A stretch of DNA of 11,948 nucleotides from a virus (Duplodnaviria; Heunggongvirae; Uroviricota; Caudoviricetes), in the IMG/VR virus record IMGVR_UViG_2645727867_000006. The stretch is one strand, 5' to 3'. Made by a program: the position numbers. Positions 7,201 through 11,948 of the stretch are shown here, piece by piece (the stretch's first letter is position 1; every line of letters begins with the position of its first letter).

Positions 7201-10200
7201 AATCGTAACACATTGAATTACATAAATTTCACTTACAAAAAGTGGGACAACAGCGGGACAACATTCAGGCATTTTGGGACAACATAGCGGCATTTTGGGA
7301 CGACACGACACGTATTTTTTACCGTGCTGGAGGGTGGGACAACACAAAAACCCTCATGTCGTCCCAAAATCGCCTTATGTCGTCCCACTTTGTGGAGTAT
7401 GTTTTTAATAAAATCAACAGGTTAACATTAAGTGGGACAACCGGGACAACTGGGACGACGTGTTTTGTATATATACGAAAAAATCGAGATCTGAACTATG
7501 AAGTTAAACCGCAAACAACCACACTACCGCGCCATTGACCTTACAGAGCACTGGCTGAGAGTGGCGATAAAAATCATCGACCGCAACACGGTGGAAGGAT
7601 ACGCGAAAGCACATCCCGAACTGATAAGCGCATTCATGACCACAGCGGCGGCAAACTTTGCCACGCTGACAGAACGGGAGATTGCCGAAGCGGAACAGGT
7701 AACAACCATCAACGTAAAAACCGGAGAGTCAGGCGATGATACATGACCGCATAGCGGAGGAACTCGAGGCGAAAGGATTTTACCGGAGGGCGGCGGCGCG
7801 ATGGGGTGAAGTCATGCAGCTGGTGGAGACAGACAAGGAACGGCATCAGGTTACGATGCGACGGCTGGAATGTTCCAGGAAGGCACAGAGGCCACCGGAG
7901 CCGCCAACGGAGAACTATGCAGACCTGAGAAATGCAGTAAATCGCACTTACGCAGACATGGGGCTGAGCAAATTAGCAGAGTAGGAATACCAGAACCACA
8001 CCACACAGCCGGAGCAATCCGGCTTTTTTGCGCCCAAAAAAAGCCCGATAAGGTCAGAGGTGGCTTATCGGGCTTTTGCATATGAGGCTTTTTGGTGCAC
8101 TGACACACATGATCGGGATAATCATTTCATAATTTGCAATACAACTCAATATCATTGCACAAAATGCAATCATAATTATAATCATAACTGGATGAACATA
8201 CAGTTATGATTTTTTAAGTCAAAGAGGAATTTCTTACTATGGCTGAAGAGAAAAAAGGCGGTGTTTCGGTGTACATAAGCCCCGACATCGTGAAGGCGCT
8301 CAAGGAACGCCACCAGCAGAACGTAAAAGCAGGCATTGCGGCAGGACTTGATCCGCTGGCGATGGTTGAGCCGTCAACAGGCTGGCAGGTACGCGCCTAT
8401 TTACGCGCGGCGCTGGGTATGAATCAGGTTCACGGGGGTGAATAATGACAGGCAAAGCAACAGCACTTACCACTAATCAGCTTTTCACGTACCTGAATCG
8501 CGGGGATATTGCGGAATTTAAATTCAGTCCGCTGTTTACCACGCTGTTTTTCCCGAACGTGGCGACATTCAGCACCCAAAACATCATGCTGGATACCCTG
8601 GACATTGAAGAAGTCACCATGTCGGCGTTTTGTTCGCCTATGGTTGGCAGCCAGGTCCAGCGCGATAAAGGGTACGAAACCAGCACGATTAAACCAGGCT
8701 ACATGAAGCCAAAGCACGAAATCGATCCAACAAAAACCATCATGCGCATGGCTGGAGAAGATCCGGCACAGCTTAACGACCCTACCTACCGACGTATGCG
8801 CCTTATTACTGGCAACATGCGCCGCCAGATAAACGCCATTAAAGCGCGCGTGGAATGGCTGGCGGTGAATGCGATAACGACCGGAAAAAACATCATTGAG
8901 GGCGAAGGCATAGAACGCTATGAAATCGACTGGAAAATACCGGAAAACTGCATCATAGAGCAGGCCAAGGGTAAAAAATGGTCCGAGCATGATAAAGATA
9001 TTTACGATCCAATCTATGACATCGAACTATACGCAGATCAGGCAGGTTGCCCCGCCAACGTCATGATTATGGGCGCTGAGGTATGGCGCACGTTACGCAG
9101 CTTTAAAAAATTCCGCGAACTGTACGATCTTTCCCGTGGTTCAGAATCCGCCGCAGAACTGGCCTGTAAAAACCTGGGTGAAGTAGTGAGCTTTAAAGGC
9201 TATCTGGGCGATATTGCCCTTATCGTCTATTCCGGCAAATACACTGACAGCGACGGTACCGAAAAATATTTCCTTGAGCCTGATTTGCTGGTCCTGGGTA
9301 ACACCAACAACAAAGGGCTGGTGGCCTATGGTGCGATTATGGATCAGGAAGCTGTAAGAACAGGCGCAACGCAAAACATGTACTACCCGAAAAACTGGAT
9401 TGAGGACGGCGATCCGGCGATTGAGTACGTGCAGACGCACAGCGCACCGCAGCCGGTACCGGCAGACATTCGCAAATTTGTTACCGTCAAAATTGGTTAA
9501 CTGGGGATTCTATGAACACTCCATACATTGAGTTATTTGCAGGCAGTCAGCAGGTATCAACGACGCTGGTACATTTTGCCGCTGATGCTGGCTTTATTCA
9601 GGAATTTACCCCGCTGATGCTGTCAGACAATGGCGAGTTTAAGCCGTGGGATGGTCAGGAATCTGGCAAGGCTGTTTATCTGACTTCGTACCCCGTGGAC
9701 ACGTCGACGCAGAAATCAGCACAGTGTTACAAGACGGGGATATTTAATATCGCCGCCGTAAACTGGCCTGAGAGCGCCGACACTGACGCGAAAAAATGCG
9801 CCGCCTTTGCGGGTTCTGGCGTATCCGTTCAGCCGCTGGCGCGATAAGCAGGGGAAACGATGGCAACGAATGAAAGCATCATGGCGCTACCGCTGGCGAG
9901 TAAATTTAAAGCAGAAGCGCGGGCAATGGCTGACAGAGGTTTATCAACCTACGAGGCCGTATATCAACTCAACAAACTGGAAGAGCAGGACAAGCCGCGC
10001 GCTGATGCGATTATGGCGCTTCATGAACATAACGACTATCAGCCGCTGTTACGTGCAATGGCAAACGTGCCATGTATTAGCGTCGATAATGCTCGTGAAA
10101 TCCTGAACATGACCATAGAGCAGGAGCGCCCAAAGGTTGCGCCGGAGCTTACCGCAGCCTTTGAAAACTTTATGGACATGCACAGCCCGAAAGCCGTATC

Positions 10201-11948
10201 ACCCGGCATGGCATACGACGGCAGAAACCCGGGCGATGAAGGCGACGTCGATCGCATACTGAAAACCATCTGACATAAGGCCGGAGAAATCCGGCTTTTT
10301 TTACGGGTCCTTTCCGGCATATGGACCCGTTACGGGGCGGCGACCTCGCGGTTTTTCGCTATTTATGAGCTTTTTCAGGGTGGTGGTGGTGGTTTTGTTG
10401 TTTGCTCTATCTTTATGAATAAAAAGGGAAATATAAAACCAATACACCAACCTGAAACCTTAACTAAGTGGGGATATTGATGAAATCGCACCTGATGAAC
10501 AAAAAAACTATGGCGCAAAGCTGCCGTGTAAGTGCGACAGCGTTCGACAAGTGGGGAGTGACTCCCGTTGAACGTAAAGGCCGCGAGGCTTTTTACGATG
10601 TTGCCAGCGTGATAGACAATCGGGTAAGCAATGCAATTAACCAGGTTGCAAACGACAAAGGCGAGATTGACGATGATGAACTCTTACGAGTCAGGATCAG
10701 ATTACTGACAGCGCAGGCGGAGGCACAGGAACTTAAAAACCATCGCGAGAGTGGCGACGTAATTGATACGGGGTTTTGTATGTACGCGCTTTCAAAGCTG
10801 GCGAGTCAGATTTCATCAATCATGGACAGCCTCCCGCTTACTATGCAAAGGAGCTTCCCACAGATGACCCCCGCTATGCTGGATGGACTTAAAAAGGAAG
10901 TGGTTAAAGCCTGTAATGCTTGCGCAGGAGTTGCTGACAACCTCCCGCAGATACTGGCTGATTACCTGATGGAAACTACCGGAGACGTACCGGAGAAGTT
11001 ACTACAGAAGAAAGGCGAGTAACAGACGCGCAATTATTGAACAAAAATGAGAAAGGATCTGATAATGGCATTTTCTGGCTAAAATGCCTCGTGTCAGATC
11101 CTTTCTTTTTTTAATATTTTCATTGTTAAACAGTCTGTTACAGAGAAGAAGAACGGATCTGACTTTTGCCGGAAAATTTTCATAAACAGATAAAAACCGC
11201 GAGGTCGCCGCCCCGTAACGGGCCATAATTCCAGGAAGGACCCGACGACACCAGACTATCAGAACGATGGGGGCACAATGACAGAAGCCGAACTACTGCG
11301 ATTAATCCGTCGCGTTGCCGGAATCAGCCAGCAGGCTGACGAACAGGCCACGCAGCCGGACAGCGTGACCGCCGAAAATTATGCGCGTGTGGTTGCTGAG
11401 GTGATGCGCCGTGATGGTATTGAGCTTAACGGCGTGGATATGCGCAACATACGAACCAGAGTCCTTGAGTTGCTGGCATACCGTCGCCGCGTGGAGATGT
11501 ATCGGGAGAAGGAGAAAATCACGTACCACTGGAAGAAGCCGGAGCGGTTACGGCGGTAACTCACTGAGATTAAAGCAAAGCTCAAAATTGCGCTGGCTGA
11601 ATGATCATTATGATTACTTATGTTTACGCAGATGATTAAGGCCTAAACCGTTGATTATTCCACAATCCCCCATTGGGGGAAGCTGGCGGTAACTGGTTGA
11701 ACTTAAAGCAAAGCGCAAAATTGCGCTGGCTGAATAATCATTATGATTACGCAGATGATTAAGGAATGACCGAAGGCGGAAATTCGCCTGTGGTTGATGG
11801 GGGAGTTGCAGATCTGCAACTCGACCATGAAATTACGGAAACTACCCGTAGTTTGGGTAGTAAGAGCAACACCCAGATTTTGGGGCTTACTCGTGATACC
11901 CAAATTTGGGGTATCGGCGGCAACCATAACGACTTTCGTTACGGTTGA

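What the first reader, a model, noticed from the sequence alone, without database searches (positions are those of the whole stretch)
8239..10273. Head operon has a capsid and decoration protein but no portal or scaffold; two unassigned small proteins are candidates for assembly or size control
The E-like and D-like genes are bracketed by a 68-aa ORF (coupled to the capsid gene) and a 137-aa ORF, neither resembling lambda Nu3, C, FI or W as I recall them. In a shell that must hold a genome roughly a quarter the size of lambda's, these are plausible scaffold, size-determination or helper-portal adaptor factors.
Basis: inference. Interest (0 to 1): 0.65.

Follow-up and report, generated by a model that had tools for sequence, protein, structure and literature searches.

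The report
Satellite island's capsid operon includes scaffold
This four-gene operon is the already-catalogued capsid block of a common E. coli phage-satellite island, and its "unassigned" 137-aa protein is a free-standing copy of the lambda-type Nu3 head-scaffold module, so the island carries coat, cement and scaffold but no portal or protease.

Summary
The window is a 10.9-kb EcCICFT073-type cos PICI inserted in caiT. The four ORFs at 8239-10273 are real, tightly packed, terminator-bracketed and under purifying selection. The unit is present in 590 of 5,426 complete E. coli genomes. They are orthologs (89-99% aa) of EcCICFT073 c1498-c1501.

"No portal" is correct. "No scaffold" is wrong. The 137-aa protein is homologous over its full length to the last ~137 residues of the lambdoid head protease/scaffold (lambda C/Nu3, phage 21 gp5/gp6). 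It has two "Tri-box" repeats plus the C-terminal tail. Lambda Nu3 itself hits its family profile at E 2.7e-26.

The 68-aa protein always abuts the capsid gene, with a stop/start overlap. It has no detectable relative among lambda head proteins, Pfam or solved structures, so its role is unresolved.

The size-control premise is contradicted for the ortholog. EcCICFT073 is packaged as phage-length DNA in full-size heads. Deleting c1499 or c1500 does not relieve interference, and a c1498-c1501::cas9 island still transfers.

Best reading: a coat + cement + mini-scaffold kit that depends on helper portal and protease, with a conditional function, perhaps with phage-21-type helpers that have not been tested.

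The parts
8007..8030 (+). Intrinsic-terminator-like hairpin (AGCCGGAGCAATCCGGCT + T-run) ending the upstream PerC transcription unit. A second 14-bp-stem hairpin follows at 8039-8077.
   Evidence: The hairpin is kept with different stem sequences in Salmonella and Pluralibacter islands.
8155..8182 (+). Promoter-like element TTGCAC-16 nt-TATAAT. The -10 hexamer at 8177-8182 is conserved across E. coli, Salmonella and Pluralibacter islands. Conserved TTGCA/TGCAA motifs lie upstream.
   Evidence: Read (invariant columns). Not picked up by the consensus scan because the -35 matches only 3/6. Function inferred.
8183..8215 (+). Leader hairpin (CATAACTG...CAGTTATG) followed by a T6 run, just upstream of the ribosome-binding site. 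Could be an attenuator/terminator or an operator palindrome.
   Evidence: (I2). 8-11 bp stem in E. coli islands (CFT073 z = -4.2). A shifted equivalent occurs in Pluralibacter. Absent in L014/L009. Weak covariation.
8239..8445 (+). 68-aa protein (ortholog of EcCICFT073 c1498, 67/68 identical). Stop overlaps the capsid start. PICI-specific, function unknown.
   Evidence: phrog_3255 E 8.4e-37. Found only in PICI contexts directly upstream of the capsid gene, and in 80/80 IMG/VR loci. dN/dS 0.35. AF2 pLDDT 74.6, beta-alpha-alpha. No fold or family match.
8445..9500 (+). Major capsid protein of the lambda gpE family (ortholog of c1499, 335/351).
   Evidence: PF03864 E 1.9e-50. 42% identical to lambda E, E 5e-93. 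Best phage match <47%. dN/dS 0.12.
9512..9847 (+). Head decoration (cement) protein of the lambda gpD family (ortholog of c1500, 104/111).
   Evidence: PF02924 E 2.9e-17. 38% to lambda D over 76 aa. dN/dS 0.11.
9860..10273 (+). 137-aa free-standing Nu3-type scaffold module (ortholog of c1501, 122/137). Repeat 1 is about residues 4-43, repeat 2 about residues 47-85, and the tail is residues 96-137 with a terminal helix ...DVDRILKTI.
   Evidence: phrog_1999 E 5.5e-62 and phrog_53 C-terminus E 2.2e-9. Lambda Nu3 hits phrog_1999 at E 2.7e-26. CFT073 prophage S49 peptidase residues 365-501 cover that profile 1-135/135 at E 1.5e-68. BLASTP E 5e-9. hhalign 97.7%, E 1.7e-12. Alignment A2. AF2 residues 11-90 pLDDT >90, helical.
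10280..10302 (+). Intrinsic-terminator-like hairpin GCCGGA-GAAA-TCCGGC + T7 closing the operon.
   Evidence: Read directly.
10335..10346 (+). Lambda-type cosN (GGGCGGCGACCT), cos1 of the island. An inverted second copy lies at 11202-11213.
   Evidence: Two cos sites are described for EcCICFT073 (PMC6739421).
10468..11022 (+). Full-length Nu1-like small terminase (context only, not part of the head operon).
   Evidence: PF07471 E 1.3e-22. 35% to lambda Nu1 over 179 aa.

Best explanation
The region is the conserved capsid block (c1498-c1501 equivalents) of a classical cos-type Gram-negative PICI. It encodes a matched shell-building set. The set has a gpE-family coat protein, a gpD-family cement protein and a 137-aa internal-scaffold module. 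That module is the last two Tri-box repeats plus the C-terminal tail of the lambdoid protease/scaffold (phage 21 gp5/gp6, lambda C/Nu3), but with no protease domain. There is also a small PICI-specific protein translated just ahead of the coat protein. Homology, operon structure, purifying selection and strict co-inheritance are shown. The following mechanism is inferred. When a helper phage activates the island, the mini-scaffold chaperones the island's own coat protein into shells. These are nucleated on the helper's portal-protease initiator. The helper protease removes the scaffold, and the island's cement protein locks the expanded shell. The helper supplies terminase, neck and tail. The island keeps its own cement and scaffold alongside a coat protein that is only 42-47% identical to any phage coat. 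That argues the coat forms its own lattice rather than merely spiking the helper's. The function is accessory or conditional: the orthologous block is dispensable with lambda and phi80, and no small heads are made there. The closest phage relatives of both coat and scaffold are phage-21-type heads, which have not been tested as helpers. The 68-aa protein is most likely a coat-linked assembly or expression accessory. Its role is not established.
For: Identity. Scaffold homology: lambda Nu3 vs the p137 family profile E 2.7e-26, and prophage S49 peptidase residues 365-501 cover the whole profile at E 1.5e-68. These residues lie outside the peptidase domain 146-293. BLASTP E 5e-9. hhalign E 1.7e-12, and transitive link to lambda Nu3 residues 120-190 at E 8.5e-15. 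The relative P0072 sits directly upstream of D-E. The same module is phage 21 gp5/gp6 with annotated Tri boxes. Lambda Nu3 is the scaffold and contacts B, C, itself and E (PMC3224144). Selection and linkage: 590/5,426 genomes. dN/dS 0.11-0.35 with no stops. In IMG/VR loci the 68-aa gene and D are present in 80/80, and the 137-aa gene in 70/71 with room downstream, whatever packaging gene follows. The coat lineage is distinct from all phages, <47%. The operon is bracketed by terminators.
Against: In the orthologous EcCICFT073, deleting c1499 or c1500 did not relieve interference, and all packaged DNA was phage-sized (PMC6092414). A c1498-c1501::cas9 island still transferred with phi80 (PMC10530653). 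Capsid genes are stated not to be required for transfer (PMC10111431). No protein-level evidence exists that island coat or cement proteins are in particles. No co-folding or structure match could be obtained. It is unknown whether a two-repeat scaffold without the Nu3 N-terminal part is competent.
Confidence: 0.45

Rival explanations
1. Competing-scaffold or interference reading (CpmB-like). The 137-aa protein mimics the C-terminal tail of the helper's protease/scaffold. It competes for the helper's coat protein or portal initiator and disturbs or resizes helper head assembly. The island's coat and cement proteins act as co-conspirators, like Ccm in SaPIbov5.
For: The tail motif AFENFMDMHSPxAV is close to the phage-21-type helper tail (A(M/L)FEHFMANHSPAAV) and less like lambda's. 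The protein is truncated relative to the helper scaffold: 2 of 3 Tri boxes and no N-terminal part. Precedents, as cited in the cf-PICI preprint: CpmB acts as a scaffolding protein that binds the phage capsid protein, and the capsid homolog Ccm redirects size. From my own knowledge, CpmB also shares the helper scaffold's C-terminus. PmCI172 carries a capsid homolog and makes small heads.
Against: No small capsids or small DNA with lambda. Deleting c1499 or c1500 did not restore lambda plaques. The known interference factor in this family is Rpp. A pure decoy would not need a conserved cement protein under strong purifying selection.
Confidence: 0.2
2. Spare-parts or insurance reading. The block supplies working coat, cement and scaffold when the helper's own genes are interrupted, repressed or limiting, for example for helper-embedded PICIs integrated in head genes. 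Otherwise it is redundant.
For: Related islands integrate inside helper late genes, most often E, and carry their own capsid gene (PMC10111431). A Salmonella relative sits in a gpA-type terminase gene. The block is dispensable with intact helpers.
Against: This island sits in caiT and CFT073's sits near phoQ, not in a prophage. At 42-47% identity to helper coats, simple one-for-one complementation within a helper lattice is doubtful. Strong purifying selection holds in islands that are not helper-embedded.
Confidence: 0.15
3. Decaying remnant of a phage or capsid-forming ancestor with no present function.
For: Dispensable in every published test. A Pluralibacter relative has the capsid gene split in two. 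A few truncated gene-4 ORFs and 93-aa deletion variants exist.
Against: dN/dS is 0.11-0.12 for coat and cement, with intact ORFs in 10 diverged loci. The unit is present in 590 genomes at 91-100% nt identity, with all four genes annotated intact in nearly all of the 40 sampled rows. Regulatory signals are conserved.
Confidence: 0.05
4. The 68-aa protein is a small dimeric DNA-binding regulator (ribbon-helix-helix-like) that controls the operon or a helper promoter, rather than a structural or assembly factor.
Against: No Pfam/NCBIfam RHH match for the window protein. All fold hits are below significance. Its position immediately ahead of the highly expressed coat gene is atypical for a regulator.
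Confidence: 0.2

Closest known systems
EcCICFT073 c1498-c1501 (classical Gram-negative cos PICI of E. coli CFT073)
   Same: Same four genes in the same order downstream of a PerC gene and upstream of cos. Amino-acid identity is 67/68, 335/351, 104/111 and 122/137. Both have two inverted cosN sites.
   Different: This island carries a full-length Nu1-like small terminase (184 aa) where CFT073 has the 144-aa Rpp. It has a DUF927 primase rather than CFT073's primase, and it is integrated in caiT.
Lambda gpNu3 / gpC and phage 21 gp6 / gp5 (head scaffold nested in the S49 head protease gene)
   Same: The 137-aa protein aligns end to end with the last ~137 residues (Tri-box repeats plus tail). It lies in a head operon beside D- and E-type genes.
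   Different: It is a stand-alone gene with no protease domain and no in-frame nesting. It lacks the first Tri box and the N-terminal ~60-100 residues of Nu3/gp6. It lies after E-D rather than before D-E. Identity to phage-21-type is only ~36%, and it is barely detectable pairwise against lambda.
SaPI1 CpmB (satellite-encoded small helical internal scaffold)
   Same: A small helical satellite protein sharing the C-terminal coat-binding end of the helper's scaffold. This is a working-principle analogy.
   Different: No sequence relation. CpmB acts on the helper's coat protein and shrinks heads, whereas here the island brings its own coat and cement, and the ortholog makes no small heads with lambda.
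SaPIbov5 Ccm (satellite-encoded capsid-protein homolog in a cos satellite)
   Same: A cos-type satellite that carries a homolog of the helper's major capsid protein (abstract of PMC8569155).
   Different: Ccm fills pentamers of a helper-protein shell and changes head shape. Here the coat comes with its own cement and scaffold, and the published deletions had no phenotype.
Capsid-forming PICIs (EcCIEDL933 family)
   Same: PICI backbone (int, alpA, rep) plus a self-encoded capsid protein.
   Different: cf-PICIs also encode portal, protease, head-tail connectors, HNH and both terminase subunits, and they make small heads. This island has none of portal, protease, connectors or TerL.

Membership tests
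Classical Gram-negative cos PICI (EcCICFT073 type) | Integrase at one end, alpA-type regulator, primase/replication gene, genes mostly unidirectional, about 10-15 kb, flanked by att repeats | tested here: met
   int 1308-2537, HTH 2912-3100, DUF927 primase 5012-7144. Size 10,904 bp between 21-bp direct repeats in caiT.
Classical Gram-negative cos PICI (EcCICFT073 type) | Lambda-type cos site(s) plus an Rpp or TerS gene in the packaging module | tested here: met
   cosN at 10335 (+) and 11202 (-), with a Nu1-like gene between them. cos1/cos2 are known for CFT073.
Classical Gram-negative cos PICI (EcCICFT073 type) | Helper-phage-dependent induction, packaging and high-frequency transfer | not testable with these tools
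   Shown experimentally only for the ortholog EcCICFT073.
Nu3-type (lambdoid) internal head scaffold | Sequence homology to the Tri-box repeat(s) and C-terminal tail of gpC/Nu3 | tested here: met
   (lambda Nu3 vs p137 family profile E 2.7e-26).
Nu3-type (lambdoid) internal head scaffold | Encoded in the head operon next to the decoration and major capsid genes | tested here: met
   12 nt downstream of the D-like gene. Gene order differs from lambda.
Nu3-type (lambdoid) internal head scaffold | Translated in frame from within the S49 head protease gene, sharing its C-terminus | tested here: not met
   Stand-alone 137-aa ORF. There is no peptidase domain anywhere in the island.
Nu3-type (lambdoid) internal head scaffold | Present in procapsids, required for ordered shell assembly and portal incorporation, removed before DNA packaging | not testable with these tools
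   Needs procapsid biochemistry. Known for lambda Nu3.
Capsid-forming PICI | [quoted passage not shown] | tested here: not met
   Only coat, cement, scaffold module and TerS-like genes are present.
Capsid size-redirection module (Ccm / CpmAB / Sid / TcaP type) | Expression yields satellite-sized small capsids | not testable with these tools
   Published result for the 89-99% identical ortholog with lambda is negative: all packaged DNA was phage-sized. Other helpers are untested.
Ribbon-helix-helix DNA-binding proteins (for the 68-aa protein) | Detectable family or fold match to RHH proteins | tested here: inconclusive

The most novel reading that the evidence does not exclude
Classical cos PICIs of Enterobacteriaceae are 'half capsid-forming' satellites. 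With their natural (phage-21-type) helpers they would build shells from their own coat, cement and two-repeat mini-scaffold, on a stolen portal-protease initiator. These shells could have a different size or stability than the helper's. The 68-aa protein would be a new coat-specific assembly or targeting factor. The lambda and phi80 experiments would have missed this because those helpers carry a different scaffold-tail type.
Probability: 0.25. Interest if true: 0.7.

Novelty: new member of a known kind. Interest (0 to 1): 0.42.

Why it matters
The capsid genes of classical Gram-negative PICIs are widespread. Here the block is in 11% of complete E. coli genomes, including O157:H7, O145:H28 and a strain whose name (SYNB1934) I take to be a Nissle 1917 derivative. 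The block is under clear purifying selection, yet every published deletion is phenotypically silent, so its purpose is an open question. I found no paper assigning c1501. Recognising it as a Nu3-type scaffold changes the picture from 'stray capsid and decoration genes' to a complete coat/cement/scaffold kit that lacks only portal and protease. That makes a concrete hypothesis testable: island-built shells on helper portals, or competition with phage-21-type scaffolds. It also bears on engineering, because this block is the site used to load cargo such as cas9 into PICI delivery vehicles.

Tried and rejected
1. Direct BLASTP of the 137-aa protein against lambda C/Nu3 was not significant (E 0.38-0.65). 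The link needed profiles and phage-21-type intermediates.
2. The exhaustive single-sequence search of 1.8 billion proteins gave only 8 hits. It was useful only for P0072.
3. The word-indexed homolog searches returned almost only close E. coli relatives.
5. For the 68-aa protein versus every lambda head or neck protein, hhalign probability was <2%. The equal length (68 aa) with lambda W is a coincidence.
6. The RHH idea for the 68-aa protein has only a topological resemblance and one weak BrnA hit. It was not supported by hhalign.
7. The anti-phage defence reading found no PADLOC hits.
8. NCBI's name 'phage head-tail connector protein' for the 137-aa protein has no NCBIfam model behind it and shows no similarity to W or FII. 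It most likely echoes the old 'head-tail preconnector' label used for C/Nu3 in phage records.
9. Both genome-contig scans found nothing, so taxonomic breadth rests on IMG/VR, Logan and NCBI contigs.
10. The gene after D in the Salmonella (68 aa) and Pluralibacter (77 aa) islands looks by eye like a single similar repeat. It does not hit the same PHROG, so I do not claim homology.
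Full report
**What the window is.** The window matches E. coli 94-3024 at 100%. RefSeq annotation there shows a small island interrupting caiT.

- Its genes, in order, are an integrase, an AlpA-type HTH, Ash/Icd-like fragments, DUF4222, a DUF927 primase and a PerC-family gene. The four genes of the finding follow, then a Nu1-like small terminase and a 93-aa ORF.
- The island is 10,904 bp between 21-bp direct repeats.
- It has lambda-type cosN twice, in inverted orientation (10335 +, 11202 -).
- This is the layout of the classical Gram-negative cos PICIs (PMC6092414; PMC6739421).

**Check of the observation.** The four ORFs lie exactly where stated.

- The 351-aa protein is a gpE-family capsid protein: PF03864, E 1.9e-50, and 42% identical to lambda E at E 5e-93.
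- The 111-aa protein is a gpD-family decoration protein: PF02924, E 2.9e-17, and 38% identical to lambda D.
- The 68-aa stop overlaps the capsid start (TAATG). The other junctions are 11-12 nt with G-rich ribosome-binding sites.
- Hairpin-plus-T-run terminators sit at 8007-8030 and 10280-10302, so this is a discrete four-gene unit.
- Nothing in the island can encode a portal, head protease or large terminase.

The ORFs are clearly real genes.

- The block is present at >=80% coverage in 590 of 5,426 complete E. coli genomes, at 91-100% nucleotide identity.
- Ten diverged loci have no stop codons. Nei-Gojobori dN/dS is 0.35 (68 aa), 0.12 (E), 0.11 (D) and 0.29 (137 aa).
- In 80 IMG/VR loci with this capsid lineage, the 68-aa gene abuts the capsid gene in 80/80 and D is present in 80/80.
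- The 137-aa gene is present in 70 of the 71 loci with enough downstream sequence. This holds whether a TerS-like gene (39), an Rpp-like gene (20) or neither (12) follows.

**The 137-aa protein is a scaffold module.** Pfam and NCBIfam give nothing. PHROGs places it in phrog_1999 (E 5.5e-62) and also hits the C-terminal end of phrog_53, 'head maturation protease' (positions 494-566 of 583, E 2.2e-9).

- The only phage tblastn hit lies just upstream of the D/E genes of Escherichia phage 204576.
- The exhaustive search found P0072 (E 2.6e-4). P0072 sits immediately upstream of D-E on its contig, and its relatives are C-termini of S49 peptidases.
- Pairwise BLASTP against the S49 peptidases of both CFT073 lambdoid prophages gives 35-36% identity over residues 416-493 of 501, at E 5e-9.
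- Profile-profile comparison gives 97.7% probability, E 1.7e-12. The phage profile in turn matches lambda Nu3 residues 120-190 at E 8.5e-15.
- The reciprocal test is decisive. Lambda Nu3 hits phrog_1999 at E 2.7e-26. CFT073 prophage peptidase residues 365-501 cover that profile end to end (1-135/135) at E 1.5e-68.
- That stretch lies outside the Peptidase_S49 domain, which spans residues 146-293.
- The prophage module is 99% identical to phage 21 gp5/gp6, the C/Nu3 equivalents. The GenBank record for phage 21 annotates three 'Tri boxes' there.

Alignment A2 shows what the 137-aa protein contains: Tri boxes 2 and 3 plus the tail. Natural 93-aa variants are deletions between its two repeats. AlphaFold models residues 11-90 as confident helices. 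A disordered acidic stretch and a short terminal helix follow.

Lambda Nu3 is the head scaffold and contacts portal, protease, itself and E (PMC3224144).

**The 68-aa protein.** It belongs to phrog_3255, of unknown function. Relatives occur in E. coli, Salmonella and Pluralibacter (60-68% identity), always directly upstream of the capsid gene in PICI-like contexts.

- The model (pLDDT 74.6) has an N-terminal strand or hairpin and two helices.
- A ribbon-helix-helix reading rests on topology and one weak hit. A direct profile test failed.
- Its invariant C-terminal Gly-Gly-Glu codons coincide with the capsid gene's Shine-Dalgarno sequence, so that conservation may be nucleotide-level.
- Its function remains open. 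I favour a coat-linked accessory role, at low confidence.

**What is already known experimentally.** I located EcCICFT073 in the CFT073 genome. Its c1498-c1501 genes are orthologs of the four genes, with 67/68, 335/351, 104/111 and 122/137 identical residues. For that island:

- Deleting c1499 or c1500 did not relieve interference with lambda.
- All packaged DNA was phage-sized, so there is no size redirection (PMC6092414).
- The island is packaged into phage-sized capsids (PMC6739421).
- A c1498-c1501::cas9 replacement was still delivered by phi80 (PMC10530653).
- A later survey states that capsid genes occur in 21 of 29 reference Gram-negative PICIs and are not required for transfer (PMC10111431).

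Four copies of this island (43.6 kb) fit a lambda head (the packaging limits are from general knowledge). I found no paper assigning c1498 or c1501.

**Most likely mechanism.** Three observations point to the island's coat protein forming its own lattice rather than only spiking the helper's.

- The island keeps a coat protein whose best match in 50,697 phage records is below 47% identity.
- It also keeps its own cement protein and its own scaffold module.
- All of these are under purifying selection and are inherited as one unit.

Without portal, protease, large terminase, neck or tail, such shells could only be completed with helper parts. This is inference. It conflicts with the silent deletions unless the function is conditional.

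One concrete condition is the helper type. The scaffold tail and the coat protein are both closest to phage-21-type heads. Only lambda and phi80 have been tested. Rival readings are a CpmB-like competitor, spare parts for helper-embedded islands, a decaying remnant, and a regulator role for the 68-aa protein. They are scored separately.

**Comparison and novelty.** As an object this is another member of a published island family, and the capsid and decoration genes have been known since 2018. The new points are the assignment of the fourth gene as a free-standing Nu3/Tri-box scaffold module and the population-level evidence of selection and linkage. Together these sharpen an open question rather than reveal a new kind of system.

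In working principle the block sits between the Ccm/CpmB-type satellites and the capsid-forming PICIs. It fails the defining test for the latter, because it has no portal, protease, connectors or TerL.

Noticed in passing
window 10304-10379 and 11169-11244: A 76-nt inverted repeat (82% complementary), each arm containing lambda cosN GGGCGGCGACCT, flanks the Nu1-like gene. The same pair is present in CFT073 and O157:H7 islands. It corresponds to the published cos1/cos2 of EcCICFT073.
   Followed up: yes
window 10468-11022: This island has a full-length Nu1-like small terminase (35% to lambda Nu1 over 179 aa) where EcCICFT073 has the 144-aa Rpp. Among 71 IMG/VR loci with the same capsid block, 39 carry the TerS type, 20 the Rpp type and 12 neither. 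The packaging gene therefore behaves as an exchangeable cassette next to a constant capsid block.
   Followed up: partly
window 8100-8238: The region upstream of the 68-aa gene is conserved from E. coli to Salmonella and Pluralibacter. It has three TTGCA/TGCAA motifs, a perfect TATAAT, then a hairpin plus T-run (8183-8215) before the ribosome-binding site. The layout is reminiscent of a promoter with a leader terminator or operator, which suggests activator or antiterminator control. The hairpin is absent in two lineages and covariation is weak.
   Followed up: partly
P0028, P0029, P0031 (E. coli, 93 aa) vs window 9860-10273: Natural 93-aa variants of the 137-aa protein are exact deletions between its two internal repeats (...AEARAMA|NVPC...). 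One-repeat versions therefore circulate.
   Followed up: partly
L014 (NZ_CM143727.1) 2893-4864 and 6597-7502: A diverged copy of the operon (81.7% nt) has a 115-aa fourth gene that lacks the FENFM..HSP motif but keeps the terminal ...DRILKNI helix. This island lies next to P2-type baseplate genes (gpV, gpW), so it may be embedded in or adjacent to a P2-like prophage.
   Followed up: no
L006/L007 (Salmonella) and L004/L005 (Pluralibacter gergoviae): The Salmonella relative is integrated next to a truncated gpA-type terminase gene, so it looks helper-embedded. The Pluralibacter relative has the capsid gene split into two ORFs in two assemblies. In both, the gene after D is a different short protein (68 or 77 aa) that does not hit phrog_1999.
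   Followed up: partly
window 9860-10273 (database names): NCBI names many orthologs 'phage head-tail connector protein'. No NCBIfam model matches. The name probably derives from the historical 'head-tail preconnector' label of C/Nu3 and is misleading as a connector annotation.
   Followed up: yes
window 8239-8445 across E. coli loci: The 68-aa gene occurs as two diverged alleles within E. coli (dN about 0.19 between window and O157:H7) while the adjacent capsid gene differs by dN about 0.013. This indicates mosaic exchange at the 68-aa/capsid junction.
   Followed up: no
window 1260-1280 and L001 13765-13785: A 21-bp direct repeat CGGTGTAGTCACTGGTGTAGT marks the island ends inside caiT. The right end lies about 216 bp beyond the window.
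   Followed up: yes
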